This document shows, piece after piece, positions 8,209 to 39,142 of a stretch of DNA of 64,000 nt. Within the stretch, counting starts at the first letter, position 1. Every line of letters starts with the position of its first letter. Below the pieces are notes generated by a model. That model made no database searches, was not told where the DNA came from, and worked only from the letters and a program-made list of their open reading frames with translations. The stretch comes from Truepera sp. (GTDB lineage: Bacteria > Deinococcota > Deinococci > Deinococcales > Trueperaceae), in assembly GCA_965218435.1 (NCBI GenBank), contig CBDCKW010000009.1:224001-288000 (forward strand), in the 5' to 3' direction. The position numbers were made by a program, and so were the translations under genes.

Positions 8209-11200
8209 CGCCGCGTTTGCGCTAAACCCGGCACAGTCAAGTCTTGCAGCGCGTGAACGGTTAAAGGCCGCTCTTTAAGGGCGCGCAGAGCTTTGACGAG
8301 CCAGCGGGCCGCGTCGGTTGTTGTGACGTAGGGGAGACCAGCCTCGAGCGCCCTTCTGAGTTCCGGCGTGTGCAGGGTGTCAATCAGCAAATCATACTCG
8401 GGTTCTTCAGACGTTGATTCAGTTGTGACGGTAAACTCGAGCGTCCTCAATTCAGCTTTTACCTCGTCTAAACCGTCACCTAGAACGAGCGCCTTACCTG
8501 AGCTTGGCAGCTTGACGTTCGCACCCAGCAAGGCTTTGGCATACGCCATGTACGGGTCCGGGTCAATGCCCATACTCTCACCCGTCGAGCGCATCTCCGG
8601 GCCTAATACCGGCAAGACGTTCTTAAACTTGAGAAACGGCAGCACGACCTCTTTGGCGCTGTAAAACGCAGGCTGCGGCGTTTCGGTAAAGCCCAACTCA
8701 GTTAAGGATTTTCCGGCAGCAATGAGCGCGGCGTATTTGGCCAAAGGGTGCCCGATGGCTTTAGACAAGTACGGCACAGTGCGGCTGGCCCTGGGGTTGG
8801 CCTCAATGACGAGCACTTCACCGTCTTTGATGACGTACTGAATGTTGATAAGCCCGCGCACGCCGATGGCTTGGGCTAACTTGACGCTGTAGTCGTGCAA
8901 CGTCTGCATGACTTTTTCACTCAGATTGACGGGCGGGGTAATACACGCCGAGTCGCCCGAATGCACGCCTGCACCTTCGATATGCTCCATCACGCCTGCG
9001 ACGACAACCCGTTCCCCATCAGCCAGTGCGTCCACGTCAACCTCTTGCGCCCCGGCGATAAAATCGTCTACCAAGATAGACGGATTTCCCGGTAGCTCAG
9101 CGTAAACCTCATTCAGATAATGCCCCAACTCCGTCTCACTGTTAACAACCTGCATGGCCCGCCCACCGAGTACAAACGACGGCCTGACCATCACCGGATA
9201 ACCTAGGTCGGCGGCGAGTTTCGCGGCGTCCTCGGGCCTCGCTACGACGCCCCCGGCGGGTTGCGGAATGTCTAAACGTTTGCAAAGTTCGTGAAACGAA
9301 CTGCGGTCTTCGGCCTCGAAGATGGCTTGCGCGGGTGTCCCCCAAATCGGCACGCCAGCGTCAGTTAAAGGTTGCGCGAGTTTGAGCGGTGTCTGACCGC
9401 CGAGTTGGACGATGACGCCCACCGGGTTCTCCCGATCAACGATGTTGAGGACGTCCTCAAGCGTCAGCGGTTCAAAATAGAGCCGGTCGGCGGTGTCGTA
9501 GTCCGTTGACACCGTTTCCGGGTTCGAGTTGACCATGATGGTCTCATACCCGGCGGCTTTAAGCGCCCAGACCGCGTGAACGGTAGCGTAGTCGAACTCG
9601 ACGCCCTGCCCGATACGGTTCGGGCCGGAACCTAAAATCACGACTTTGGGCCGGTCCGAGTCCTCAACTTCGTCTTCCCACTCATACGTCGAGTAGTGGT
9701 ACGGCGTGTACGCCTCAAATTCAGCGGCGCAGGTGTCTACGGTTTTGTAGACCGGGGCGCTGTGATGCTCTAACCGCCACTTTCTTACGTCTCCAACCGC
9801 CGCACCCGTCAACGTCGCCAAATCCGCGTCACTAAACCCAAACCGCTTGACCTCACGCCAGGTTTCCCAGTTCCACGCTTTAGGATTGCCGAGCGCCGTA
9901 ATCTCCTGCTCGACTTCGGTAATCTCTTTAAGCTGAGAGAGAAACCACGGATCAATCGCGGTTTTGTCGTGTAAGAACCTCACGCTTTTACCGCGCCGTA
10001 AAAGTTCTAACAAGGCCGGGAGACGTTTGGGGGTCGCGGTGAGGCGGGCCTCGAGTTCAGCCAGCCCCAACTTGCCCGTTTCGGTGCGGACATCGGACTC
10101 CAACGACCGGAGCGCCTTTTGCAGCGACTCCTTAAAGGTGCGGCCAATCGCCATGACTTCCCCAACCGAGCGCATCTGTGTGCCTAGCAGGTCGGTAGTG
10201 CCGGGAAACTTTTCAAAGGCAAAACGCGGAATCTTGGTTACGACGTAATCAATCGAAGGCTCAAACGCCGCCTTGGTCTCCTGGGTGATGTCGTTCGGCA
10301 ACTCGTCTAGGTGATAACCAACTGCCAGCAACGCTGCAATCTTTGCTATTGGATAGCCTGTTGCTTTAGATGCCAGCGCCGACGAGCGTGATACCCGTGG
10401 GTTCATCTCGATGACAATCACATCGCCGTCTTTGGGGTTGACTGCAAACTGAATGTTCGAGCCGCCCGTGTCTACGCCGATTTCGCGGATGATCGCAATC
10501 GAATAGTCGCGGAGCCGCTGATACTCTTTGTCCGACAGGGTTTGCGCCGGGGCTACGGTGATGGAGTCGCCGGTATGAACACCCATCGGGTCGAGGTTTT
10601 CAATCGAGCAGATGATGACGACCGTATCGTTATGGTCGCGCATGACCTCGAGCTCGTACTCTTTCCAGCCCAACACCGACTGCTCGACCAACACCGAATG
10701 CACCGGCGAGTCGTGCAGTCCTTGCTTGACGATCTCCCGAAACTCGGCCTCGTCGTAAGCGACGCCGCCACCCGTGCCGCCGAGCGTAAACGAGGGCCGG
10801 ATGATGGCCGGATAGCCGATGGTCTCAGTAAATGCTAAAGCTTCGCTGAGTGACGTGACCATCTTCCCGGCAGGTGTTTTGATGCCAATTTTGGCCATCG
10901 CTGCTTGAAACAGTTGCCGGTCTTCACCTTTATTGATGGCGTCGTAATTCGCACCGATGAGTTCAACGCCGTATTTTTCTAATGTGCCGGTTTCAAACAG
11001 GGTTTTAGCTAAATTCAGCGCCGTTTGTCCGCCCAAAGTCGGTAACAGGGCGTCGGGCCGCTCGGCAGCGATCACTTTTTCGGCAACTTCGGGGGTGAGG
11101 GGCTCGAGGTACGTTCTATCGGCTACCTCCGGGTCGGTCATGATCGTCGCCGGGTTTGAGTTGATCAGCGTCACCGTAAACCCGGCGGCGCGGAGGGCTT

Positions 11201-14197: not shown

Positions 14198-15088
14198 TTA
14201 CTTGGGCTGTTTGACAAACACCGGATAACGCCCCCGCTGCTCAAAACCGATAGATTCATAGATGCGCACGAGTTTCGGGTCGCGCTGCGTGACGAGCGTT
14301 TGCAACCGGGCGAAGGGGCTCCGGGCGGCGAGCTCTTGCATACTCGAGAGTAAGAGCCGCTGCAACATCGCTGCCGAGTCGCGGTGCTCAGCCAATACGC
14401 CCGCCGACGTGAGGTAGTACACGCCGTCAATACTGTCTTCTAACACGCCGTAAAACGCGTACCCAACCGGCTCTTGGTCGAGGGTCTGAGAGGCCAGAAA
14501 CCACAAGTTCGGGTGAAAGGGGCCACGCCAGCGTTTGAGCCACGCCCAAAACGCTTCGGACGGCCTAAAGCCCTCACCTTGTTCAAAGACGCTTTGAAAC
14601 TGCTCGTCGCTCTCTTCGCTCCACGCCTCGAGCACCAAAGGTGTACCGAGCGGTGGGAGTTCAGCCAGGTCGAACTCCAAATCAACCGCCTGCCGACCTT
14701 CAAAGCCGAGCGCGGTTAAAACCGGCTCGAGCATCTCGAGGCGGGCCGGTGACACGTTATAGAGCGGGCAGTGAACAGCCTCGTGGTCGAACTTGTCTAA
14801 GAGGTACTCGAGCAAGGTTGTTAGATCGTCAGCGGATTGCTTGAACCAAAGATTGCTTAAAAGTAGGTTCTGGTCGTCTTCTTCAGGCTCCGGGGCCTGC
14901 ACATATGCCCCGGCGAGCGGCACGTCACCCGGCGCAAAGAGGATAAAACAGTTTTCGGCCTCGCTTGCAGGGTCATGAAAGGCGCGCATACTCTGCCGCG
15001 CAAACGCGCGTGGGTCGCTGTGACCTAAAAATTCGTAAGATGAGGCGAGAAACCACTCGAGTTCGTCGGGGGAGGTAGAGCGAATCAC
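14198..15088 (-). CDS. Tandem GNAT-like acetyltransferase
   Basis: GVLAEHR...AML and RIYESIGF motifs; two GNAT-sized halves. Confidence 0.65.
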   Translation of the reverse strand: MIRSTSPDELEWFLASSYEFLGHSDPRAFARQSMRAFHDPASEAENCFILFAPGDVPLAGAYVQAPEPEEDDQNLLLSNLWFKQSADDLTTLLEYLLDKFDHEAVHCPLYNVSPARLEMLEPVLTALGFEGRQAVDLEFDLAELPPLGTPLVLEAWSEESDEQFQSVFEQGEGFRPSEAFWAWLKRWRGPFHPNLWFLASQTLDQEPVGYAFYGVLEDSIDGVYYLTSAGVLAEHRDSAAMLQRLLLSSMQELAARSPFARLQTLVTQRDPKLVRIYESIGFEQRGRYPVFVKQPK

Positions 15089-15241
15089 TGTAGCGCACTT
15101 TACCGCACAGCAGGCCGGTTACAGAAGTGGTTTTACGGAACTCGGCGGCGAGCCTTACGGTAAACTCCGGGGATGGCCGTTTTCCCTGACCTCGACCCTA
15201 TGAAATTAGAAACGTAACTGGACCCAAGTGAGTCAACCGAG

Positions 15242-15745
15242 ATGAGTAAACCGAGAATTATCGGCGGCACCGCGAAGGGCCGCGTGTTAGAGGTACCCAA
15301 AAGCGGCACCCGCCCGAGTCCGAGCCGGATGCGTGAGGCGTTATTTAACATCCTCGGGTTTCGGCCCAGAGGGACCTTTTTAGACCTCTACAGCGGGACG
15401 GGGGCCGTGGGCCTCGAGGCTGCCTCACGCGGCTGGGCGGCAACGTGCGTGGACCTCTCCAAAGAGGCGGCGGGCGTCATCCGTAAAAATGTTCAGGCGC
15501 TTCACCTGGACGTTGGGGTCGTTCAGGGGGACGCGCTCGCTTACACCAAAAAACATCCGGGCGGCTTTGATGTGGTCTTTGCCGCGCCGCCTTATCCGCT
15601 CGAGCTCGAGCATATTTTTGAGACGATTGTCGCCGCTGAGGTTGCCACCTCGCTCTACGTGTTTCAACATCCGGCGGCGCTGACGCTGTTGGGTGAGAGG
15701 CGCATCTACGGGACGAACGCGCTGACGCTGCTCGAGGTTGACTAA
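15242..15745 (+). CDS. rsmD: 16S rRNA m2G966 methyltransferase, RsmD family
   Basis: RIIGGTAKGR, TRP...REALFNIL, LDLYSGTGAVGLEAASRG, APPY. Confidence 0.92.
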   Translation: MSKPRIIGGTAKGRVLEVPKSGTRPSPSRMREALFNILGFRPRGTFLDLYSGTGAVGLEAASRGWAATCVDLSKEAAGVIRKNVQALHLDVGVVQGDALAYTKKHPGGFDVVFAAPPYPLELEHIFETIVAAEVATSLYVFQHPAALTLLGERRIYGTNALTLLEVD

Positions 15746-31087: not shown

Positions 31088-31353
31088 GTTAAGCTCCTTT
31101 CAAACTGAGACGCTATCTGAAAACCAGAAAAGTTGTGCCAGACTTACTTTTCTCTTACTACCGCGCTTTTCTTAGCCTTCGTTTACTGAACCTGTTTTGG
31201 TAGGAATAACAAGGGTTTTCGGACAGGTTCCAAGGTAGACGCTACAACTAAGCACGATGAAAAGAAGTAAGAACTTGGTCACTACTTATCCGCAGATGAG
31301 TTTAGAAAGCGTGTATGTTTTTCGTAAACACCGGTTTAACCGCTACATAAAAG

Positions 31354-31383
31354 CCTCGAGCCCCAGGTAAAAGGGGCTCGAGG
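31354..31383 (-). terminator. Terminator hairpin with CTCGAG arms
   Basis: CCTCGAGCCCC-N8-GGGGCTCGAGG, followed by a T tract on the - strand, just past the stop at 31419. Confidence 0.75.
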
Positions 31384-31418: not shown

Positions 31419-33182
31419 TTACGGCGCGGTGAAGTTGGCCACGACGTTTTTATCACTGTCCATCACCAGGACGCAGGTTGGCGAAGTACCAGCAGGACTA
31501 CACGCGCCGCCCCAGTTTACAAAGGCAGAGCCGTTTTTTGTTGCCGCTGTTAGCTCAACTTTGGTACCGGCGTCGTAGATGTTACAAGCAGTGCCACACT
31601 TTTTACCGGACGGTGACAGTCTGACGTTGCCGTACTTGCCGGTCTCGTTGCCCGGTTGCTCAATCTTAAGCGTAAAGGTGCTCGGCGACGGCGTTTCATC
31701 AACTGGAGCGACCGCTACACTTTTAGTCACCGAGGCGGTTGCCCCTTGATCGTCGGTTACCTTGAGCGTTACGTTATAAGTAGCGGCTGCCGAAAATGAC
31801 CTCGTAAACACCGGATTTCCGGTATTAACGACGGCCCCACCGTCTCCGAAACTAAACTCGTAACTGACAACTTTACCGTCAGAGTCTTTTGAACCACTGG
31901 CATCAAACTGTACCGCTAACGTGTCCGGTACCTGTTTGAAAGTAAAGTCCGCCGTAGGCGCTTTGTTACCGGGTGGTGTGGTACTACCGCTCACAGTCAC
32001 CATTACCGTTTTAGTCGCTGACGCTGAGCCGTTACTTGCTGTAAGGGTATAGGTCGTTGTCGCGGTTGGGCTAACAGACACACTCTTTTTACTTGTTACA
32101 TCGCCCACACTATTATCAATGCTGAGCTTAGTCACAGTACCGGAAGTGCTCCATGAAAGCGTGCTGCTCTGACCACTGATGATAGTTGACGGGTCAGCTT
32201 TGAATGAGTTGATTTTTGGTGCGGTCGGGCCTGGAGGTGTTACAGGCGGGTTGGGTGGGGTTGGGGGCGTCGGCGGGTTAGGCGGTGTTGGAGGATTTGG
32301 TGGAGTCGGCGGATTCGGATTGGTCGGCGGCGGTGTCGTCGAGCCCCCCACGGTGACATAGCCCCGTGGCGGCTGGTTATACGGGTCACCCCCAGCTGTA
32401 TCAGCAATCCGGGTCCGCAACACATACGCAAACTCACCACTGACACCCGGTAAAGCCGTGATGTTCGGCGTGCCCGCGGCAACCTTGATCGGATAAACAC
32501 ACGTGATCGAAGTCTGAGTCCCGTCTAGCGCACACCCGGTTGTCTCCGCATTTAACGTAAAGCCGTTGACATCGGTGTCTTGTACCAGGTCAGCCATGAA
32601 GTTTGCCGGACTACGGTTGGCTAAGTAGATGGTCACGCCGGTAACCGGGGCAGGGCCACTATAGGTAACTTGGGCGTAGAAGGTACCGCCGCTGGCAGGA
32701 ACGTTGACGATTCGGGGGTCACCTGCTGTGATGCTGCCGTCGGCGTCACTCGTAAAGGGGCCGGTTTGTGACAAGCTGACGCCGAAAGAGACCGTCCGGC
32801 TCCCGTCCGTTGGGGGCGTGACGGGACCGCCGACGGTTACGGTGGTCATCGCGTCGTCGCTGCCGCTGCTGTTGGTGGCCGTCAGGGTGTAGGTTGTCGT
32901 GGCGGTCGGGGTCACGGTGGTGCTCACACCACTGATCGAACTGAGGTTGGTGCCGTCGCTGCCCTTTAGGCTGAGGCTGGTGGGGACGCCGGTAATGACC
33001 CAGTTAAGCGTGACCGGGGTACCGGCAGCGACGTTGGTTTGACTGGCGGTAAAGCTGGTGATTTGTGGTGCGCTGCTGTTATTACCGTCGCCTGAAACGC
33101 CCGGACAGGCCGTCAGCAAAAGCGCCAAGCCGCCCAAAAAAAGAGGCCAAAAGCGCCGGAGCGCCGGTTGTAAAGAGTGCAT
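31419..33182 (-). CDS. Modular surface lipoprotein A (Ig-like, core domain, Pro-rich linker, Ig-like, PKD, InlB-B-repeat-like tip)
   Basis: Lipobox LTAC; PKD signature NKAPTADF..FDASGSKDSDG..FGDG..VTLKVTDDQG; C-terminal VELTA..FVNWGGAC..C.LVMDSDKNVVANF. Confidence 0.88.
   Translation of the reverse strand: MHSLQPALRRFWPLFLGGLALLLTACPGVSGDGNNSSAPQITSFTASQTNVAAGTPVTLNWVITGVPTSLSLKGSDGTNLSSISGVSTTVTPTATTTYTLTATNSSGSDDAMTTVTVGGPVTPPTDGSRTVSFGVSLSQTGPFTSDADGSITAGDPRIVNVPASGGTFYAQVTYSGPAPVTGVTIYLANRSPANFMADLVQDTDVNGFTLNAETTGCALDGTQTSITCVYPIKVAAGTPNITALPGVSGEFAYVLRTRIADTAGGDPYNQPPRGYVTVGGSTTPPPTNPNPPTPPNPPTPPNPPTPPTPPNPPVTPPGPTAPKINSFKADPSTIISGQSSTLSWSTSGTVTKLSIDNSVGDVTSKKSVSVSPTATTTYTLTASNGSASATKTVMVTVSGSTTPPGNKAPTADFTFKQVPDTLAVQFDASGSKDSDGKVVSYEFSFGDGGAVVNTGNPVFTRSFSAAATYNVTLKVTDDQGATASVTKSVAVAPVDETPSPSTFTLKIEQPGNETGKYGNVRLSPSGKKCGTACNIYDAGTKVELTAATKNGSAFVNWGGACSPAGTSPTCVLVMDSDKNVVANFTAP
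32332..33087. repeat. Direct repeat copy 1 (756 bp)
   Basis: Matches 38292-39047 at offset 5960; only one substitution noticed by eye. Confidence 0.95.
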
Positions 33183-33385
33183 AGTTATCTCCTCCAAACT
33201 AGCTGTGGTGTCCCCGTACACGCCTCACCCAATTAACGAAACCGTGTACTTCAGGGTCGGGCGTTATTATTTTAGACCTATCTTGGTAGCTGGCGTCAAG
33301 GTTTAGAGCGTTTTACGGCGAAACTTTACGGCGAATGGCAGGGTATAGCGAGGGCGGCTCGAGCCCCACCGACCGCACCCAGATG

Positions 33386-33615
33386 TTACGCCGCGTGCAA
33401 CAGCGTACTCAAAGCTTCAGGCAGGTTAGCCGCGACAAAACAGCTTTCAGGGTAGAGCTAAGCTTCGCCGGATTCGTCCGTAATTCGCAAAAACCCGATG
33501 TTTGGGCCTCATCGTCCGGTAAAACGCGGTAAAGCTTGTGCAGCTCGAGCAGAACCTCAAAGCCTATATAAACGCATACAGCGAAGCGTGGTTCGGTCGC
33601 CGCTAAACGACTCAT
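33386..33615 (-). pseudogene. Decayed paralog of the 34649-34885 gene
   Basis: PRFAVCV..LELHKLYRVLPDD, then a frameshift to RITDESGEA*LYPESCFVAANLPEAL..LLHAA*. Confidence 0.85.
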
Positions 33616-33646
33616 AGTTGGGGAGAGCCTAACACAAGTGTTTCAG

Positions 33647-33689
33647 AACCCTCGAGCCGCCCCCAAAGCCGCTGTAAAAAAGCTCGAGC
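33647..33689. repeat. Paired-CTCGAG junction site A
   Basis: AACC CTCGAG CCGCCCCCAAAGCCGCTGTAAAAAAG CTCGAG C (26-bp spacer). Confidence 0.85.
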
Positions 33690-33721
33690 TGTGGGAAGCT
33701 ATAGGTCAACACCCGAGGTTT

Positions 33722-33937
33722 TTACGCCAAAAAGTCGTACACCGGCGTCTGCAACATCCTTTTTGGTTCTCTCTGACCCCACGCCATACGCTGAAGCTTT
33801 TCGACCGTCTCCGGCGCAAAAAGCTGCTCACCTGTTTGAAGACTTACTCTGGCAGGTACATTTTCAATGATGACGAGTTTTCCCTGCACCTCGAGGGTGT
33901 AGGTCACGGTGCGCTCTACGAATTCTTCAGGTATCAC
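33722..33937 (-). CDS. YgiT-type zinc-finger family small protein (Cys-less variant), putative antitoxin
   Basis: VTYTLE..GKLVIIENVPARV...TGEQLF..ETVEKLQ; GTG start after GGAGG, overlapping the upstream gene. Confidence 0.82.
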   Translation of the reverse strand: MIPEEFVERTVTYTLEVQGKLVIIENVPARVSLQTGEQLFAPETVEKLQRMAWGQREPKRMLQTPVYDFLA

Positions 33938-34256
33938 CTTTTTGCCTCCTCTCTCTAAAGTTAAACCATAATGTCGGGTCAGGTTCGTAAAGTGTAACGA
34001 TTTTAATAAGCGCACGTGACGGGTAGCTACACTGAATGTGAAGAGGTCGCTGAGAGTCAGTAAAACCTAACAGTAGGCAACTTGGGCCGTACTTATCATA
34101 CGGGTAGTCTTCGATGATCTCAGCTTCGAGTAGGGCTTCACGCAGCTCTGCAAACGTAATGCGGCGTAAAATGCTCTGGTCAACGGCGTGACGCGAGAAC
34201 TCGTACTCACCTAAAGCAATTTTTGTGCAGATTTCGTCAGCGAGGGCCACCTGCAA
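33927..34256 (-). CDS. DUF4258-family protein, putative toxin
   Basis: FSRHA, IIEDYPYDKYGPSCLLLG, RPLHI, IVTLYEPDP..W. Confidence 0.88.
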   Translation of the reverse strand: MQVALADEICTKIALGEYEFSRHAVDQSILRRITFAELREALLEAEIIEDYPYDKYGPSCLLLGFTDSQRPLHIQCSYPSRALIKIVTLYEPDPTLWFNFRERRQKGDT

Positions 34257-34339
34257 GAGTTTAACCGTTTACCTACTGCTGTTTTACGTGTCTTAAGAGC
34301 AACGACAAAATCTTCTCGAGTCCCAAGGAGGGCTTAAAC

Positions 34340-34594
34340 TTAAGAAACAGCTTTATGCGCTTCGGCGTAAAGTTTTAAGGCTGCGTTGACCCGCGTTTCG
34401 TAATCCTCTTGCGCTTGAAACCAAGCCAGCACCCTCGAGTCTATTTCGAGTGTCACGGCTGTTCGGCGTTCGGGTAAACGCAACTCGGCCCGTCTGAAAA
34501 AATTTTCGTCAAGCAGACCCTCGCTGGTGTCAATCTCAGCGTCGGTCAGGGCGTCTACCTTAGCCCAATCGGTCTTTGACGGGTTCTCTTTCAC
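34340..34594 (-). CDS. BrnA-family antitoxin (orphan)
   Basis: TDWAKVDALTDAEID, VTLEIDSRVLAWF, YETRVNAAL. Confidence 0.88.
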   Translation of the reverse strand: MKENPSKTDWAKVDALTDAEIDTSEGLLDENFFRRAELRLPERRTAVTLEIDSRVLAWFQAQEDYETRVNAALKLYAEAHKAVS

Positions 34595-34648
34595 AGCCTC
34601 AACAAGTTTGCGCTCATGGCTTACGGCCTTTTGTAAGTGAGGTTGCGT

Positions 34649-34885
34649 CTAAGCCGCGTGCAGCAGCATATCTCTTAATGCTTCAGGTAAGTCTATCGCG
34701 ACAAAGTAAGCTTTGGGATAAAGGTAATCTTCACCGGATTCGTCTAGCACACGCAGAAACCCGACCTTTTCGGCGGCGTCATCGGTTAAAACGCGGTAAA
34801 TTTTGTGCAACTCGAGCGAAACCTCATAGTCTGTATTTTGAATACACACAACAAATCGTGGGTCGGTTGCTCTTAATTCGTCCAT
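34649..34885 (-). CDS. Small acidic hypothetical protein, putative antitoxin/immunity partner
   Basis: LRVLDESGEDYLYP; 10 bp downstream of its partner; has a paralogous pseudogene. Confidence 0.8.
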   Translation of the reverse strand: MDELRATDPRFVVCIQNTDYEVSLELHKIYRVLTDDAAEKVGFLRVLDESGEDYLYPKAYFVAIDLPEALRDMLLHAA

Positions 34886-34895
34886 ACCTATCAGC

Positions 34896-35129
34896 TTAGT
34901 CCAAAAAGCGTTTAATCTTAAATTCTTTGCGACCGATTCCGTTAGCTTCGTACCAGTGAAGCTCTACCCTTCGTAGTGTGTCACCGGCCAGCGAAACGAC
35001 AGCCACACCTTTGAGTTTACGCCAACGACCGGGGCCGTATATTTTTTGTAGGCGAGCCAATTCACGGATACCGTTTCCAGCTGCGATAGTTTCTATTTCG
35101 GTGATGGTACCGATAATTTCAAAGTGCAT
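34896..35129 (-). CDS. Small basic hypothetical protein, putative toxin
   Basis: GRWRKLKG, ELHWYEANGIGRKEFKIK; leaderless-type -10 TAGGCT upstream. Confidence 0.78.
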   Translation of the reverse strand: MHFEIIGTITEIETIAAGNGIRELARLQKIYGPGRWRKLKGVAVVSLAGDTLRRVELHWYEANGIGRKEFKIKRFLD

Positions 35130-35160
35130 CGCTTGGGAAAGCCTAGCACAAGCATTTTAG

Positions 35161-35199
35161 AACCCTCGAGCCCATTAGAGTAGCCAGAAAAGCTCGAGC
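35161..35199. repeat. Paired-CTCGAG junction site B, between divergent promoters
   Basis: AACC CTCGAG CCCATTAGAGTAGCCAGAAAAG CTCGAG C (22-bp spacer). Confidence 0.8.
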
Positions 35200-35217
35200 G
35201 TCCGCTATACTGACGTC

Positions 35218-35469
35218 ATGATGACCCAAGACGCTGAGCTGCTCGAGCGCATCACCCTCATTCCAGAGTTGATGGGCGGTAAACCAACCGTCCGGGGGTT
35301 GCGAATTACTGTAGAGCAGCTTCTTTCGGCTCTTGCCCACGGGGTCAGCGAAGCCGACCTGCTAGACGATTACCCGGAGCTGAGCCGCGACGACATTGCC
35401 GCCGCTCTCCTCTACGCAGGTACGCTCGTGGCTGAAGAACGCGTCATTCCTATTACCGACGCGGCCTAA
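35218..35469 (+). CDS. DUF433-family antitoxin
   Basis: RITLIPELMGGKPTVRGLRITV..LL..DYPELSRDDI.AAL.YA. Confidence 0.93.
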   Translation: MMTQDAELLERITLIPELMGGKPTVRGLRITVEQLLSALAHGVSEADLLDDYPELSRDDIAAALLYAGTLVAEERVIPITDAA

Positions 35470-35478
35470 AGCATTTTT

Positions 35479-35826
35479 ATGAAATTCTTGTTCGACGTCG
35501 GTGTCGGACGAAAAGCCGAGCAGTTTTTAGCAGCGCAAGGCCACGACGTTCAAGCTGTCCGTGACCTCGACCCAAGGTTGCCTGACAGCGATATTCTTGA
35601 TATTGCCGTCTCTGAAATGCGACTCGTCGTGACGATGGATAAGGATTTTGGTGAACTGGTCTACCGCTCGAGGCGCGCCCACGCCGGGGTGTTGTTATTA
35701 CGCCTAGAGGCTGCGACAGGTGACGAAAAGGTAGCCATAATCAAGACCCTTATCGAAAACTACGCGGGCGACATAGCCGGTCGGTTTGCGGTTTATCAAA
35801 ACGGCAAGTTAAGGATTAGACGGTGA
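35479..35826 (+). CDS. DUF5615-family PIN-like toxin
   Basis: MKFLFD, D.DIL, RLVVTMDKDFGELV, GVLLLRL. Confidence 0.92.
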   Translation: MKFLFDVGVGRKAEQFLAAQGHDVQAVRDLDPRLPDSDILDIAVSEMRLVVTMDKDFGELVYRSRRAHAGVLLLRLEAATGDEKVAIIKTLIENYAGDIAGRFAVYQNGKLRIRR

Positions 35827-35834
35827 ATGAAGCA

Positions 35835-35875
35835 AACCCTCGAGCCCACCCAAGTCCCCCTAAAAAAGCTCGAGC
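35835..35875. repeat. Paired-CTCGAG junction site C, between convergent genes
   Basis: AACC CTCGAG CCCACCCAAGTCCCCCTAAAAAAG CTCGAG C (24-bp spacer). Confidence 0.85.
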
Positions 35876-36270
35876 TACAGCTGTTCCAGCTTCTCAGCCA
35901 ATATGCCTACAACGTCAGCTTTACTTAAACGCCCTTCCGCGACCCCTAAAACCAAGTCAAACTTTTCATCTTGAGAGAGCCCGAGGCGAAGGCCGTTTAA
36001 CCGTAAAAAAGTAGCTGTTACCGCGTAAGCCGTACGTTTGTTGCCGTCTATAAAGGGATGATTCCGAACCAAGCCGATGAGATAGCTCGCGGCCATTTCA
36101 GCAAAACCCGTATTCAAACGTTGTCCGCCAAAACTCGCCTGGGGTGAAGCTAGCGCAGACCCCAACAGCCCCATGTCCCGAAGGCCGAACGACCCGCCGA
36201 AACGTTCGATGAGCGTGTCATGGATTTGTAACACGGTCGGCAAGGTTAGAAAGACGGGTTCTTCAGGCGT
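35875..36270 (-). CDS. Doc/Fic-family toxin; the expected start codon reads ACG
   Basis: NHPFIDGNKRTA Fic motif; GLRDMGLLGSAL..P; first in-frame TTG is at 36243. Confidence 0.85.
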   Translation of the reverse strand, partial: TPEEPVFLTLPTVLQIHDTLIERFGGSFGLRDMGLLGSALASPQASFGGQRLNTGFAEMAASYLIGLVRNHPFIDGNKRTAYAVTATFLRLNGLRLGLSQDEKFDLVLGVAEGRLSKADVVGILAEKLEQL

Positions 36271-36493
36271 TGGAAAGTCGCCCCAACACCGTTTCGTCTT
36301 CTGCCAAGACCGCCCCGAACGCCATTGCCGCCCGCACTTCACCCTTTTCCAAACCGGGCGCGTGAAGCGTCAGCACCTTGCCCAGCAGCTGCACCTCGAC
36401 CTCTCCACCTGAAGGGACGCCCAACAGCTCGAGCGTCTCCTTACCTAAAATGATGGCTTGAGAGTTCCCTACTTTGGTCAGCTTTTTGCGCAT
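36263..36493 (-). CDS. AbrB/MazE-family antitoxin
   Basis: KLTKVGNSQAIIL; GGAGG RBS; overlaps the doc gene. Confidence 0.9.
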   Translation of the reverse strand: MRKKLTKVGNSQAIILGKETLELLGVPSGGEVEVQLLGKVLTLHAPGLEKGEVRAAMAFGAVLAEDETVLGRLSNA

Positions 36494-36568
36494 TACGGCC
36501 TCCTGTTAAGACGATGTTATAACGGCTGATGGGTAAAAGAAAGCTCGAGCATCCCCTATAATGACGCC

Positions 36569-36796
36569 ATGACTCAGCTCATCCTCAAATTAGATGAAGA
36601 AACAGTCTCAAAAGTACAAGAAGCTGCCGAACGCGAAGGGTTGACACGTGACGAATGGCTTGTGAAGCTTGTTGAAGAGCGACTGAGTAAAAGCTGGCCC
36701 GCTTCAGTCAGGCAACTTAGTGGCGCTTGGCCCGACTTTCCCGACGCGGAAACGTTGCGGGAGCATCACCAAGACGTACCCCGCGAAACGTTTTAG
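36569..36796 (+). CDS. Ribbon-helix-helix-type (VapB-like) antitoxin
   Basis: MTQLILKLDEE..AAEREG..WP..VRQLSGAWPDFP; leaderless TATAAT-N6-ATG; stop overlaps the vapC GTG. Confidence 0.82.
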   Translation: MTQLILKLDEETVSKVQEAAEREGLTRDEWLVKLVEERLSKSWPASVRQLSGAWPDFPDAETLREHHQDVPRETF

Positions 36797-37195
36797 TGTT
36801 CGCGCTTGATACAAACACGGTTATCTACTATTTCAAAGGTTTAGGCGGCGTTTCCGACCGTTTACTTGCCACCCTACCGCGAGAGGTCGCTATACCCGGC
36901 ATCGTTGTCTATGAGCTGGAGCGTGGCGTCCTGAAAGCAGGATCGTCCAAAAAACGAGAACAACTTGCTCTATTTTTGCTTTTACCATTTTGCCTTTTGG
37001 ACGCACCGAAGGAGCAGCAGCGGCACAATTAGTGGCGAGCTCGAGGCGTGTGGTCTACCTATCGGCCCCTTAGACGTCCTTATTGCAGGCACAGCTCTAG
37101 CGCATGGCGCAACCCTGGTAACCCGCAATCTTAGAGAGTTCAGCCGGGTTGAAGGTTTGAAAGTTATAAGTTGGTACGACGAGAGTAACCCTTGA
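36796..37195 (+). pseudogene. VapC PIN-domain toxin split by two frameshifts
   Basis: LDTNTVIY..VVYELERG in one frame, TILPFG in a second, PIGPLDVLIAGTALAHGATLVTRNLREFSRV in a third. Confidence 0.88.
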
Positions 37196-37207
37196 TAGCT
37201 GGTGCAA

Positions 37208-37249
37208 AACCCTCGAGTCTCCCCAAAGCCGCCGTAAAAAAGCTCGAGC
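37208..37249. repeat. Paired-CTCGAG junction site D
   Basis: AACC CTCGAG TCTCCCCAAAGCCGCCGTAAAAAAG CTCGAG C (25-bp spacer); nearly identical to site A. Confidence 0.85.
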
Positions 37250-37273
37250 CCCCGCTTTAGGAGGGCTCGAGCT
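37241..37273 (-). terminator. Terminator hairpin of lipoprotein B, sharing a CTCGAG with site D
   Basis: AGCTCGAGCCC-N11-GGGCTCGAGCT with an A tract on the + strand. Confidence 0.7.
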
Positions 37274-37336
37274 GAATAAGAGAAGTAGTTAGAGTTCGAC
37301 TGACTCACAACCTACTTGTGTACGGAATAACGTTGT

Positions 37337-39142
37337 CTACTCGCCGTCATATGTGACCGAGTTATCCTTAGTAGTTGATGCAGTATTCGGGTTCCCTGCC
37401 TTGTCAGTTGCCCTGGCTTCACCTATAAAGACTTTGATTGTCTCACCTTTTTTCATTCCAGCTATGGAAATAGTGTAAGTGGTGGGACCCCCTTGTAAAG
37501 AAGCATTAGCTGTTGTACTTCCTTCAATCGTCACATCGTCTCTTGCAAAGCCTAGTATTTCCTCACTAAAAGTAGCGGTAAATCTTATGGGGCTAGTGGT
37601 TGCAGGATCAACTTGTCCGTTGGCCTGTTTGATGGTTACACTCGGCGCAGTCGCGTCTACAGATCTGACTTCGACATTTACATCGTCAAAAACTGATTTG
37701 CCATTAGTGGCAGTTAACCTTAATGTATAGTTTCCGGCTTCCTCAAATGTAGCATTCGTGTCTTCTGAAATGGAGTCAGAGAAAACTACGTTTCCGGGGT
37801 TAGCACCAGTGGCTGTCCATCGATATGTTGTAGTACCAGTGGTAGGCTCATTTTCTGTACTAGCTTGTAGAGAGACCATTGCTAACCCCTGAGCGTTGAG
37901 CGTTACAGGTTCAACGGCTTCAATACTTACAGTAAATGCTGGTGTTTCGGTAACACCGCCAACCTTAACAGTTGCGGTTTTCGTCGTTGACGCTGAGCCG
38001 TTCTTCGCTGTGAGCGTGTAGGTCGTCGTCTTAGTTGGGCTGACAGACTTGCTCGTCGTACCTGTCACAGTTCCTACACCGTTACTGATACTGAGTGAGG
38101 TCACGGTGCCGGAAGTGCTCCATGAAAGCTTGCTGCTCTGACCACTGGTGATAGTTGACGGGTCAGCTTTGAATGAGTTGATTTTTGGTGCAGTCGGGCC
38201 TGGAGGTGTTACAGGAGGATTCGTGGGCGGCGGATTTGTAGGCGGCGGATTTGTAGGCGGCGGATTTGTAGGTGGTGGGTTGGTTGGCGGTGGTGTCGTC
38301 GAGCCCCCCACAGTGACATAGCCCCGTGGCGGCTGGTTATACGGGTCACCCCCAGCTGTATCAGCAATCCGGGTCCGCAACACATACGCAAACTCACCAC
38401 TGACACCCGGTAAAGCCGTGATGTTCGGCGTGCCCGCGGCAACCTTGATCGGATAAACACACGTGATCGAAGTCTGAGTCCCGTCTAGCGCACACCCGGT
38501 TGTCTCCGCATTTAACGTAAAGCCGTTGACATCGGTGTCTTGTACCAGGTCAGCCATGAAGTTTGCCGGACTACGGTTGGCTAAGTAGATGGTCACGCCG
38601 GTAACCGGGGCAGGGCCACTATAGGTAACTTGGGCGTAGAAGGTACCGCCGCTGGCAGGAACGTTGACGATTCGGGGGTCACCTGCTGTGATGCTGCCGT
38701 CGGCGTCACTCGTAAAGGGGCCGGTTTGTGACAAGCTGACGCCGAAAGAGACCGTCCGGCTCCCGTCCGTTGGGGGCGTGACGGGACCGCCGACGGTTAC
38801 GGTGGTCATCGCGTCGTCGCTGCCGCTGCTGTTGGTGGCCGTCAGGGTGTAGGTTGTCGTGGCGGTCGGGGTCACGGTGGTGCTCACACCACTGATCGAA
38901 CTGAGGTTGGTGCCGTCGCTGCCCTTTAGGCTGAGGCTGGTGGGGACGCCGGTAATGACCCAGTTAAGCGTGACCGGGGTACCGGCAGCGACGTTGGTTT
39001 GACTGGCGGTAAAGCTGGTGATTTGTGGTGCGCTGCTGTTATTACCGCCGCCCGAAACGCCGGGGCAGGCGGTCAAAAGAACCGTCAGCGCGGCGAATAG
39101 TAGCAGGGGCGCGAACCTGGCTAGCTTGTGTTTTGTGTGCAT
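37337..39142 (-). CDS. Modular surface lipoprotein B (N-terminal half as in A; different Ig/PKD-like tip)
   Basis: Lipobox LTAC; PPTN linker; C-terminal DATAPSVTI..FTATFSE..D.AGN Ig-like domain; GGAGG RBS. Confidence 0.88.
   Translation of the reverse strand: MHTKHKLARFAPLLLFAALTVLLTACPGVSGGGNNSSAPQITSFTASQTNVAAGTPVTLNWVITGVPTSLSLKGSDGTNLSSISGVSTTVTPTATTTYTLTATNSSGSDDAMTTVTVGGPVTPPTDGSRTVSFGVSLSQTGPFTSDADGSITAGDPRIVNVPASGGTFYAQVTYSGPAPVTGVTIYLANRSPANFMADLVQDTDVNGFTLNAETTGCALDGTQTSITCVYPIKVAAGTPNITALPGVSGEFAYVLRTRIADTAGGDPYNQPPRGYVTVGGSTTPPPTNPPPTNPPPTNPPPTNPPPTNPPVTPPGPTAPKINSFKADPSTITSGQSSKLSWSTSGTVTSLSISNGVGTVTGTTSKSVSPTKTTTYTLTAKNGSASTTKTATVKVGGVTETPAFTVSIEAVEPVTLNAQGLAMVSLQASTENEPTTGTTTYRWTATGANPGNVVFSDSISEDTNATFEEAGNYTLRLTATNGKSVFDDVNVEVRSVDATAPSVTIKQANGQVDPATTSPIRFTATFSEEILGFARDDVTIEGSTTANASLQGGPTTYTISIAGMKKGETIKVFIGEARATDKAGNPNTASTTKDNSVTYDGE
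38292..39047. repeat. Direct repeat copy 2 (756 bp)
   Basis: Matches 32332-33087. Confidence 0.95.

What the first reader, a model, noticed from the sequence alone, without database searches (positions are those of the whole stretch)
33358..37273. Integron-like array of TA modules delimited by paired CTCGAG junction sites, with no recombinase nearby
Seen: six or seven small two-gene or remnant modules in mixed orientation fill ~3.9 kb. Four junctions carry AACC-CTCGAG-(C-rich...AAAAG, 22-26 bp)-CTCGAG-C (33647, 35161, 35835, 37208; A and D nearly identical). Single CTCGAG sites mark other boundaries (33358, 34315, 36544). All four sites keep the same orientation regardless of gene direction, and one lies between convergent genes, so they are not just promoters. 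They lack attC GTTRRRY ends and the 11-6-11 dif layout. Established: TA modules accumulate in integron and pdif cassette arrays. Inference: an undescribed cassette-capture system using a CTCGAG-based site and a trans-encoded recombinase or methylation-directed recombination.
Basis: partly seen in the sequence, partly recalled or inferred. Interest (0 to 1): 0.85.

Follow-up and report, generated by a model that had tools for sequence, protein, structure and literature searches.

The report
Repeat-bounded toxin-antitoxin cassette array
A row of small toxin-antitoxin gene pairs in an uncultured Deinococcus relative is separated by copies of one 45-base repeat, and related genomes gain, lose and reorder the pairs at such repeats without the enzyme that integrons use.

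Summary
The core observation holds. The four paired CTCGAG sites are copies of one ~45-bp direct repeat. All lie on the + strand, and they occur nowhere else in the 4.8-Mb genome. They separate seven toxin-antitoxin (TA) modules or remnants.

CTCGAG itself is uninformative. It is the genome's commonest hexamer (2.06 per kb), as this scan noted before in other Deinococcales. So the single CTCGAG "boundary marks" are not above chance, except a half-repeat at 36540.

The same locus in four congeneric genomes holds different subsets of the modules. Homology breaks at or near the repeats. A fifth genome has an empty site: one repeat plus the neighbouring gene's terminator hairpin.

A second Trueperaceae genus has a larger TA array with related junction elements of about 100-130 nt (most fold as long imperfect hairpins). 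Two of its genomes carry four shared cassettes in a different order.

No integron integrase was found, no recombinase lies in the window, and the attC and dif consensus features are absent.

Best reading (0.45): a cassette array shuffled by ordinary homologous recombination between portable junction repeats, as with PeSL elements of T4-type phages. An unknown site-specific recombinase stays open (0.28).

The parts
31419..33221 (-). Left flank: PKD/Ig lipoprotein gene, paralog of the right-flank gene
   Evidence: ORF. Pfam PKD_4, PKD and Flg_new_2. 31974-33115 is 91% identical to 37940-39075.
33358..33370 (+). CTCGAGCCCCACC core at the left edge of the island (possible degenerate junction)
   Evidence: Read. 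The same core recurs in the junctions of the second genus. It does not match the repeat profile.
33409..33615 (-). Remnant 68-aa paralog of the 78-aa gene, with the same upstream region as the 77/78 module
   Evidence: repeat families D5, D8 and D11, 78-86% identity.
33645..33692 (+). Junction repeat A
   Evidence: nhmmer E 1.1e-10; pattern hit.
33722..34256 (-). DUF4258 toxin (33927-34256) with YgiT-type partner (33722-34015)
   Evidence: Pfam PF14076, E 4e-20. TIGR03831, E 7e-5. 80% identical to the G004 module.
34340..34594 (-). Orphan BrnA antitoxin gene (no BrnT beside it)
   Evidence: Pfam PF14384, E 1.8e-7.
34649..35129 (-). Two-gene module of unnamed families (78 aa at 34649-34885, 77 aa at 34896-35129)
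   Evidence: No Pfam or NCBIfam hit. Atlas shows only 'hypothetical protein' clusters in several phyla. A homolog sits at the same locus in G005.
35159..35202 (+). Junction repeat B, between divergent gene starts
   Evidence: nhmmer E 3.5e-9.
35206..35220 (+). TATACT -10-like box, six bases, then the ATG of the DUF433 gene. The same 33-nt layout recurs at 36540-36572.
   Evidence: Read. Repeat family D6, 88%. The same layout is seen in G004 and G005. Promoter function was not tested.
35218..35826 (+). DUF433 antitoxin-like gene (35218-35469) and DUF5615 PIN-like toxin gene (35479-35826)
   Evidence: Pfam E 1.4e-21 and 1.1e-21. 81% identical to the G004 module.
35833..35878 (+). Junction repeat C, between convergent gene ends. 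The Doc stop codon abuts its right end.
   Evidence: nhmmer E 1.2e-9.
35875..36493 (-). Doc/Fic toxin (35875-36342) and its AbrB-type antidote (36263-36493)
   Evidence: PF02661 E 1.5e-19. TIGR01550 E 1.2e-19 and TIGR02609 E 9e-7.
36540..36572 (+). Right half of a junction repeat, then TATAAT, then the ATG of vapB
   Evidence: 88% identity to 35189-35221. Profile E 0.055 within the island.
36569..37195 (+). VapB-like antitoxin (36569-36796) and a PIN-domain VapC split over two frames (36727-37032 and 36965-37195)
   Evidence: Homolog in G002 at the same locus.
37206..37252 (+). Junction repeat D, the terminal 'anchor' copy
   Evidence: nhmmer E 3.6e-10. Orthologous copies in G004, G002 and at the empty site of G001.
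37234..37273 (-). Intrinsic-terminator-like hairpin (13-pair stem) followed by TTTTTT, downstream of the right-flank gene. Its 3' arm and T run form the right half of repeat D.
   Evidence: Fold -14.9 to -15.5 kcal/mol, z -2.2 and -3.3. Terminator scan.
37337..39142 (-). Right flank: PKD/Ig lipoprotein gene, conserved next to the array in G004, G005, G002 and G001

Best explanation
The region is a chromosomal toxin-antitoxin cassette array. It is anchored at the 3' end of a PKD lipoprotein gene. The terminal repeat (D) contains the T run and one arm of that gene's terminator hairpin. Repeats A, B and C are further direct copies of the same 45-bp element.

Each junction also carries boundary signals. 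On the + side of B and of the half-repeat at 36540, a -10 box and a start codon follow at a fixed distance.

Because every junction holds the same sequence in the same orientation, recombination between any two junctions can excise, delete, duplicate or re-insert a whole module. DNA taken up from relatives can replace one module by another.

I take the enzyme to be the host's general homologous recombination, not a dedicated integrase. That would make this a bacterial counterpart of the promoter/stem-loop 'PeSL' cassettes that shuffle genes in T4-type phages.

Shown: the repeat family, its restriction to one locus, the TA content, the module-level differences between relatives, the empty site, and the reordering in a sister genus.

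Inferred: that the repeats are the recombination substrates, that RecA-type recombination does the work, and that the junctions act as terminators and promoters.

The CTCGAG words are a by-product of the genome-wide CTCGAG excess.
For: 1. Four repeat copies, all + strand, and none elsewhere in the genome. In six genomes of the genus, the 8 strong model hits (42.9-57.7 bits) are exactly the array copies; everything else scores 20.4 bits or less.

2. The same locus holds different content. G000 has seven modules. G004 has R-[DUF4258]-R-[DUF433/DUF5615]-R. Its homology to the window starts inside A (33649) and ends at the last base of C's second CTCGAG (35875), and its last repeat aligns with both C and D. 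G005 has BrnA, the 77/78 module, a B-like repeat and then a vapB-type start. G002 has VapBC plus a D-like repeat and tail. G001 has one unit plus the terminator and no TA genes.

3. The copies are homogenised within each genome. All 3 G004 copies read CCCCTCGAG...AAGGCTCGAG, and all 4 G000 copies read ACCCTCGAG...AAAGCTCGAG.

4. Homology between junctions runs beyond the 45 bp into promoter-like flanks (33 nt at 88%, 46 nt at 83%). The G005 break lies at the start codon. That fits homology-driven exchange better than exchange at one fixed site.

5. In genus g4, G058 and G008 share four cassettes (83-89% identity) between the same flanks, in the same orientation but a different order.

6. No integron integrase: best hit 62.2 bits against a cut-off of 265, in 5 genomes. 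No tyrosine recombinase, serine recombinase or Y1 transposase hit lies in the window.

7. D's right half plus the tail is the best terminator-like hairpin of the region.

8. PeSL precedent: recombination between promoter/stem-loop cassettes shuffles genes and makes mini-circles (abstract of PMC2839356).
Against: - In the window's own genus, the four arrays are collinear subsets of the G000 order. Deletions from a longer ancestor would suffice there. Reordering is seen only in the other genus.
- Kinship of the g4 junctions to the window's repeat is weak: 18.9-19.7 bits, which is background level in a whole-genome search.
- One G000/G004 break lies ~45 bp from the nearest CTCGAG, not in a full repeat (34270).
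- A contig joint 34579->33722 in the sample's reads does not end at repeats.
- Repeats A-C fold weakly (-5.5 to -9 kcal/mol, z 0.06 to -2.85). They are not predicted terminators, apart from a weak six-pair hairpin hit inside C. So the regulatory role of the internal copies is unproven.
- Homologous recombination does not explain how a new TA operon first acquires flanking repeats.
- No experiment or read evidence shows circles or RecA dependence.
Confidence: 0.45

Rival explanations
1. An undescribed integron-like system. A recombinase encoded elsewhere in the genome recognises the junction element, possibly as a folded single strand, and excises and inserts TA cassettes site-specifically at the anchor next to the terminator.
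For: - One array per genome, strictly direct repeats at the module boundaries, and junction sequence specific to each genus. Within-genome homogeneity is seen in genus g1. Cury et al. report that attC sites are more alike within than between integrons (passages of PMC4889954).
- The empty site holds a single copy.
- Cassettes are reordered with orientation kept in G058 versus G008.
- g4 junctions are about 100-130 nt; most of those folded form imperfect hairpins whose ends pair, the size class of attC (-20.7 to -27 kcal/mol, z -1.2 to -3.7 for 7 of 8 folds; one fold z +0.48).
- The genomes carry many tyrosine recombinases that could act in trans (10-23 PF00589 hits each).
- CALIN arrays without a nearby integrase are common.
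Against: - No integron integrase in 5 genomes.
- No recombinase adjoins any of the six arrays examined, read over the stretches fetched.
- No attC R''/R' consensus at the repeat ends, and no 11-6-11 inverted arms (read; one search lists no inverted repeat within a unit).
- The window's repeats fold weakly.
- Junction homology is of variable extent.
Confidence: 0.28
2. The repeats are only regulatory or insulating elements: terminator remnants, A-tract and promoter pieces that were copied along with local duplications. The differences between genomes are plain decay and deletion of an old TA island, with no cassette mobility in this genus.
For: - D plus the tail is a terminator.
- CTCGAG-stem terminators of the form AAAG-CTCGAGCCCC...GGGGCTCGAG occur at other genes of these genomes, for example at window 31350-31382.
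- Promoter-like boxes abut B and the half-repeat at 36540.
- Several modules are decayed: the 68-aa remnant, the orphan BrnA and the split VapC.
- The g1 arrays are collinear subsets of one order.
- Part of the 77/78 module is duplicated inside the island.
Against: - The modules belong to unrelated families, so the repeats were not copied by duplicating one module.
- Repeat orientation is constant whatever the gene direction, and B and G004's R2 sit where no gene ends.
- The repeat occurs nowhere else in the genome, although terminators and promoters are everywhere.
- Reordering in genus g4 needs movement of cassettes.
Confidence: 0.17
3. The cassettes are passengers of non-autonomous IS200/IS605-type (PATE-like) elements. 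The genome's many Y1 transposases would move them as single strands, inserting them one after another beside a fixed target.
For: G000 has 22 Y1_Tnp hits. Such elements have hairpin ends and insert in one orientation next to a target (recalled, not from a call).
Against: - The ends of the six-copy IS200-like element carry a CCACCGC...GCGGTGG hairpin unlike the junction.
- Short-word BLAST of the four junctions against the flanks of 16 of the 22 Y1 hit places (repeat copies of one element left out) gave only 10-20-nt matches, the longest exact one 15 nt.
- No Y1 gene lies in the window.
Confidence: 0.04
4. CTCGAG itself is the active site, through cutting or methylation by an XhoI-type system that directs recombination.
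For: CTCGAG is invariant in the 8 g1 repeat copies. The island has 20 sites in 3.9 kb, which puts it in the top 0.23% of genome windows. A rare contig (depth 2.9) joins 36550 to 37273 in inverted orientation across the AGCTCGAGC palindrome.
Against: - There are 9883 sites genome-wide and no cassette structure at the others.
- Pairs of sites are no commoner than chance.
- g4 junction copies often carry CCTAAG in place of CTCGAG.
- The inverted joint is what chimeric reads at a palindrome would give.
- No methyltransferase or nuclease was examined.
Confidence: 0.03

Closest known systems
Sedentary chromosomal integrons and CALIN arrays (clusters of attC sites lacking an integron integrase)
   Same: - One array per genome.
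- Cassettes are bounded by direct copies of a site that is homogeneous within a genome and differs between lineages.
- TA modules are the cargo.
- Content and order vary between relatives.
- There is no integrase next to the array, as in CALIN (definitions from passages of PMC4889954).
   Different: - No IntI anywhere in the 5 genomes searched.
- The repeat is 45 bp (about 75 bp with the tail) and lacks the R''/R' consensus. In this genus it folds only weakly.
- The cassettes are two-gene operons in both orientations with their own promoter-like boxes.
- The array is anchored on a gene's terminator rather than on attI.
PeSL (promoter-early stem-loop) regulatory cassettes of T4-type phages
   Same: Short repeated elements with a promoter and stem-loop terminator sit between small accessory genes. 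Insertions, deletions and replacements between close relatives occur at them by recombination, without a dedicated integrase (abstract of PMC2839356).
   Different: - This is a bacterial chromosome, not a phage.
- The cargo is TA operons in both orientations.
- Only the terminal copy is a convincing terminator.
- Promoter activity is untested and mini-circles are not shown.
pdif (XerC/XerD) modules of Acinetobacter plasmids
   Same: Discrete modules, often TA pairs, are bounded by short recombination sites and shuffled between replicons, with the recombinase encoded elsewhere (search listing and abstract starts only).
   Different: - pdif sites are 28-bp 11-6-11 sites that flank each module in inverse orientation, and they sit on plasmids.
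- Here the repeats are direct and chromosomal.
- They have no 11-nt inverted arms.
Neisserial intergenic mosaic elements (dRS3-bounded repeat units) and minimal mobile elements
   Same: Strings of short variable units, each bounded by a small palindromic repeat, sit beside accessory genes. They are thought to serve as homology for exchange by transformation (recalled, not from a call).
   Different: - The phylum and the sequence differ.
- Those repeats are dispersed in many copies. This one is confined to a single array.
HIP1-type highly iterated palindrome
   Same: CTCGAG is about 7-fold over-represented in the window and is the commonest hexamer of the genome. This scan reported the same before in other Deinococcales.
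   Different: That is the genomic background, not the array. It explains why CTCGAG decorates the repeat, but not the repeat itself.

Membership tests
Integron / CALIN | Integron integrase (IntI, a tyrosine recombinase with the extra ~35-residue domain) in the element or the genome | tested here: not met
   TIGR02249 in G000, G004, G008, G001 and G005: best hit 62.2 bits against a cut-off of 265; 0 of 5 genomes over the cut-off. The feature is defined in PMC4889954.
Integron / CALIN | attC sites: R''/L''...L'/R' boxes (RYYYAAC ... GTTRRRY; consensus recalled) folding into an imperfect hairpin | tested here: not met
   None of the 4 window copies has the consensus at either end (read). The folds are weak, a 7-8-pair CTCGAG stem with a ~20-nt loop. 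The IntegronFinder attC covariance model could not be run.
Integron / CALIN | At least two sites in direct orientation bounding gene cassettes | tested here: met
   4 copies on the + strand in the window, 3 copies on one strand in G004, and 5 and 4 tail motifs in G008 and G058.
Integron / CALIN | Cassette content and order differ between close relatives | tested here: met
   Content differs among G000, G004, G005, G002 and G001. Order differs between G058 and G008.
pdif / Xer modules | 28-bp XerC-spacer-XerD sites (11-6-11) flanking each module in inverse orientation | tested here: not met
   All copies are direct. No inverted arms within a unit were reported. The chromosomal dif site of this genome was not located.
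PeSL-like regulatory cassettes | The repeat combines a promoter and a stem-loop terminator | tested here: inconclusive
   D plus the tail gives a 13-pair stem followed by T6. A -10-like box and ATG abut B, the 36540 half-repeat, G004 R2 and the G005 copy. The consensus promoter scan called none of these. No expression data are available.
PeSL-like regulatory cassettes | Insertions, deletions and replacements between relatives occur at the repeats | tested here: met
   One break (34270) lies ~45 bp from the nearest CTCGAG.
PeSL-like regulatory cassettes | Circular products of exchange between neighbouring repeats | not testable with these tools
   Only assembled contigs of one sample were available. 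One 'goes back 858' joint was seen, but its ends are not at repeats.
REP/BIME or IS200/IS605-derived elements | Many dispersed copies, and ends matching a resident Y1 transposase element | tested here: not met
   The copies are confined to one locus. No similarity to the flanks of Y1 elements.
HIP1-like iterated palindrome (background only) | One short palindrome many-fold over expectation throughout genes and spacers | tested here: met
   137 against 19.5 in the window. 9883 copies, the commonest hexamer; the next palindrome has 2130.

The most novel reading that the evidence does not exclude
Trueperaceae carry an integrase-independent counterpart of the integron. A single chromosomal array, anchored on a gene terminator, would have its structured junction elements cut and rejoined by a still unidentified, trans-encoded recombinase. 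That enzyme would capture and reshuffle toxin-antitoxin operons.
Probability: 0.28. Interest if true: 0.85.

Novelty: new variant of a known kind. Interest (0 to 1): 0.62.

Why it matters
Gene-cassette arrays are understood almost entirely through integrons and their IntI/attC chemistry. How arrays without an integrase arise and move is an open question.

This lineage offers a compact case. The arrays are small. An empty site and a filled site exist within one genus, and reordering is seen in another. No IntI is present.

If plain homologous recombination at portable terminator/promoter repeats does the work, modular shuffling of the phage PeSL kind also shapes bacterial chromosomes and TA repertoires. 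If a dedicated enzyme does it, that would be a new cassette-capture system.

The case also carries a caution for readers of such genomes: a hyper-abundant palindrome (CTCGAG) will decorate any conserved spacer and can look like a recombination site.

Tried and rejected
- **Rfam** on 33000-37600, both strands, E up to 1: only a spurious lncRNA hit (E 0.64).
- **First metagenome pattern scan** for the repeat: 0 stretches.
- **Genome-collection pattern scan**: 15 stretches. Three are overlapping views of the G004-type array. The two other Trueperaceae/Deinococcales hits (L044, L043) read as coding or unrelated sequence. The rest lie in unrelated phyla, about the number my own rough estimate of chance matches gave (about 20); they were not opened.
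- **Metagenome relatives of the DUF5615 protein**: 80 loci kept. I searched 22 of the 80 with the repeat model and found one 12-bit hit. The closest relative (L060, 75% identity) has no direct repeats, so the module also exists outside arrays.
- **Family-wide pattern searches**: clustered copies were found only in G000, G004 and G008 (10 of 121 genomes had any match), and in G008 and G058 for the g4 tail motif (4 of 121). The junction sequences are genus-specific, so arrays in other genera would be missed.
- **A third pattern** mostly picked up ordinary CTCGAG-stem terminators. One match row came from an unpublished genome (G053), and nothing here rests on it.
- **IS200/IS605 ends versus the junction**: no likeness.
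- **Sequencing runs**: two runs of one sample, contigs only. They show strain variants branching at B and D. Three of the four joints are weak: 33282->35853 (depth 2), 36550<->37273 inverted (depth 2.9) and 33202->33266 (depth 2.4). The fourth, 34579->33722 (depth 15.9), does not end at repeats. None is used as evidence for excision.
- **Literature searches** found nothing on a CTCGAG iterated palindrome, on TA arrays in Trueperaceae, on integrons or attC in Deinococcota (one unrelated soil survey), or on TA arrays flanked by direct repeats of this kind.
- **Considered and dropped**: CRISPR (spacers of 0.6-1.5 kb that encode operons) and an antitoxin operator (the repeat flanks unrelated TA families).

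Full report
**What is in the sequence**

The window is G000:C9:224001-288000 of a 4.8-Mb, 57% G+C genome. Record titles of related contigs name the family Trueperaceae.

Between 33.2 and 37.3 kb lie seven small modules or remnants:
- a decayed 68-aa paralog of a 78-aa gene;
- a DUF4258 toxin with a YgiT-type partner;
- an orphan BrnA antitoxin;
- a 77/78-aa pair of unnamed but widespread families;
- DUF433 with a DUF5615 PIN-like toxin;
- Doc with its antidote;
- VapB with a PIN-domain VapC that is split over two frames.

The island sits between two paralogous PKD/Ig lipoprotein genes (31419-33221 and 37337-39142, both minus strand). They share 1.1 kb at 91% identity, with stretches at 99%. 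The surroundings are housekeeping genes, including rnpA, yidC and jag. Pfam found no recombinase among the ORFs of 22.4-46.0 kb.

**The repeat is real; CTCGAG alone is not informative**

The four paired sites match CCTCGAG-N18-32-AGCTCGAGC, all on the + strand. Shuffles expect 0.00 matches. A profile of the four ~45-bp copies finds only them in the whole genome (E 1.1e-10 to 3.5e-9; next hit 0.056).

CTCGAG, in contrast, is everywhere:
- It occurs 137 times in the window against 19.5 expected.
- It occurs 9883 times in the genome and is its commonest hexamer. Earlier agents of this scan noted the same in other Deinococcales.
- Adjacent pairs 20-28 nt apart are no commoner than chance, 145 against 183.

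The single sites at 33358 and 34315 do not match the profile. The site at 36544 is the right half of a repeat (profile E 0.055). That half-copy continues into a 33-nt stretch 88% identical to the right flank of B: repeat end, seven bases, TATAMT, six bases, ATG.

**The terminal copy is part of a terminator**

On the minus strand, the right half of D plus the next 25 bases forms a 13-pair hairpin (AGCTCGAGCCC...GGGGCTCGAGCT) followed by TTTTTT. It lies just downstream of the right-flank gene and is the best terminator-like site in the region. Hairpins of this form (AAAG-CTCGAGCCCC...GGGGCTCGAG) also sit downstream of other genes in these genomes, for example at window 31350-31382.

Repeats A-C alone fold weakly. 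The only structure is a 7-8-pair stem between the two CTCGAG words.

**Comparison within the genus**

The same chromosomal locus, next to the PKD gene and a metallophosphoesterase, could be read in five genomes of the genus.

| Genome | Content at the locus |
|---|---|
| G000 | seven modules or remnants, four full repeats |
| G004 | repeat, DUF4258 module, repeat, DUF433/DUF5615 module, repeat plus terminator |
| G005 | IS110-like gene, BrnA remnant, 77/78 module, B-like repeat, then the promoter box and first codons of a vapB-type gene |
| G002 | VapBC followed by a D-like unit and terminator |
| G001 | no TA gene: one CTCGAG-N21-AAAGGG-CTCGAG unit plus the terminator hairpin |

- **G004.** Homology to the window begins inside A (33649). 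It stops at 34270, resumes 8 bp before B (35151) and ends at the last base of C's second CTCGAG (35875). G004's last repeat aligns with both C and D. Relative to G000 it therefore lacks exactly the two modules between C and D.
- **G005.** The two modules between B and the 36540 half-repeat are missing.
- **G001.** The single unit aligns with D plus the tail of the other three genomes.

A sequence model of eight copies scores 42.9-57.7 bits on those copies and 20.4 bits or less everywhere else in the six genomes of the genus. The copies are homogenised within each genome: G004 copies all read CCCCTCGAG...AAGGCTCGAG, and G000 copies all read ACCCTCGAG...AAAGCTCGAG.

One caveat applies. The four arrays are collinear subsets of the G000 order, so deletions alone could explain this genus.

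**A second genus shows movement**

G008 (genus g4) has an array of eight or more TA modules: MNT/HEPN, PIN/DUF2281, two HicAB pairs, ParE, MNT/HepT and UPF0175/PIN. The modules face both ways and lie between a sugar-transferase gene and a pilin gene.

- Every junction carries, on the + strand, strings of CTCGAG-bounded ~40-nt units and a recurring tail, GCCTGATAAAGCGTCAGG...GGGGAGGGGC.
- These 100-130-nt junctions fold as imperfect hairpins whose ends pair.
- The tail motif occurs only in that one array (5 copies) and in the array of its congener G058 (4 copies), all on the + strand.
- G058 and G008 share both flanks and four cassettes at 83-89% identity in the same orientation. The order is 5, 4, 7 ... 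1 in G058 against 1 ... 4, 5 ... 7 in G008. Deletion cannot produce that; cassettes moved.
- Many junction copies in both genomes carry CCTAAG where others carry CTCGAG. CTCGAG is therefore dispensable.

The window's repeat model hits g4 junctions near full length, but only at 18.9-19.7 bits. Shared layout is clear. Common descent is not proven.

**What it is not**

- No integron integrase was found. The best hit scores 62.2 bits against a cut-off of 265, in 5 genomes.
- The genomes carry 10-23 tyrosine recombinase hits each, but none lies in the window. The nearest is a 96-aa fragment about 9 kb before the window's start.
- No resolvase or Y1 transposase hit lies in the window either.
- The repeat ends lack the attC consensus and have no 11-6-11 inverted arms.
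- The ends of resident IS200-type elements are unlike the junction.
- Rfam has nothing.

**Mechanism**

Any recombination between direct repeats gives the observed layout. That covers constant repeat orientation, modules in either direction, whole-module gains and losses, a single repeat at the empty site, and reordering through excision and re-entry or through replacement by transformed DNA.

I favour general homologous recombination (0.45), for four reasons:
- no dedicated enzyme is found;
- the homology between junctions varies in extent and runs into promoter-like flanks;
- the copies are homogenised within a genome;

A trans-encoded site-specific recombinase stays a serious rival (0.28). 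Points in its favour:
- there is one array per genome;
- the junction sequence is specific to each genus;
- the g4 junctions are structured;
- CALIN arrays without nearby integrases are common (passages of PMC4889954).

The remaining readings are a purely regulatory role with simple decay (0.17), a Y1-transposon origin (0.04) and CTCGAG-directed cutting or methylation (0.03).

Reads of the one available sample were contigs only. They show strain variants branching at B and D. Three of the four joints have low depth, and the fourth (34579->33722, depth 15.9) does not end at repeats. None is usable as evidence.

**Novelty**

My searches found no description of such arrays, of integrons in Deinococcota, or of the CTCGAG excess. 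The library covers open-access papers only. I rate this a new variant of a known kind: an integron- or PeSL-like cassette array with a non-attC junction repeat and no IntI.

Noticed in passing
whole window and genome: CTCGAG is the commonest hexamer of the genome (9883 copies, 2.06 per kb). The octamer GCTCGAGC alone occurs 2508 times. The TA island is AT-richer (about 50% G+C) yet has 5.1 sites per kb.
   Followed up: partly
window 31974-33115 and 37940-39075: The two PKD/Ig lipoprotein genes that flank the island share their N-terminal halves (91% overall, stretches at 99%). They differ in a proline/threonine-rich linker repeat. Recombination between them would delete the whole island. In G004 the left copy is reduced to a C-terminal remnant.
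   Followed up: partly
window 34649-35129 (-): The two-gene module (78 aa and 77 aa) has no Pfam or NCBIfam family. Its nearest protein-atlas clusters are unnamed and spread over several phyla. It is a candidate undescribed TA-like pair.
   Followed up: partly
window 36965-37069: The PIN-domain vapC is split over two frames. Contigs of the sample include a co-occurring variant with one extra base after 37026 and six bases fewer at 37069 (depth about 41 of 270-510). Whether that variant has an open frame was not checked.
   Followed up: no
window 33722 and 34579: One contig (depth 15.9) joins 34579 back to 33722. This could be a circle, a tandem duplication or another strain's module order. The ends are not at junction repeats.
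   Followed up: partly
L011 (G005) about 9300-9640: An IS110-type transposase gene end abuts the truncated BrnA gene at the left edge of the G005 array.
   Followed up: no
L033 (G008) 8790-9050: A run of CTCGAG-bounded junction units, two of them identical, with no gene between them ('empty' units) lies at the right end of the G008 array, just before a pilin gene's terminator.
   Followed up: partly
G000:C6 (21 kb): This contig carries two identical copies of a tyrosine recombinase gene (2062-2466 and 15043-15447) and of a triple-CTCGAG stretch (6140 and 19121). It may be a small circular element assembled more than once round.
   Followed up: no
window 35206-35220 and 36557-36571: A -10-like box lies six bases before the ATG with no room for a ribosome-binding site. 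This suggests leaderless transcripts, as known in Deinococcus relatives (recalled).
   Followed up: no
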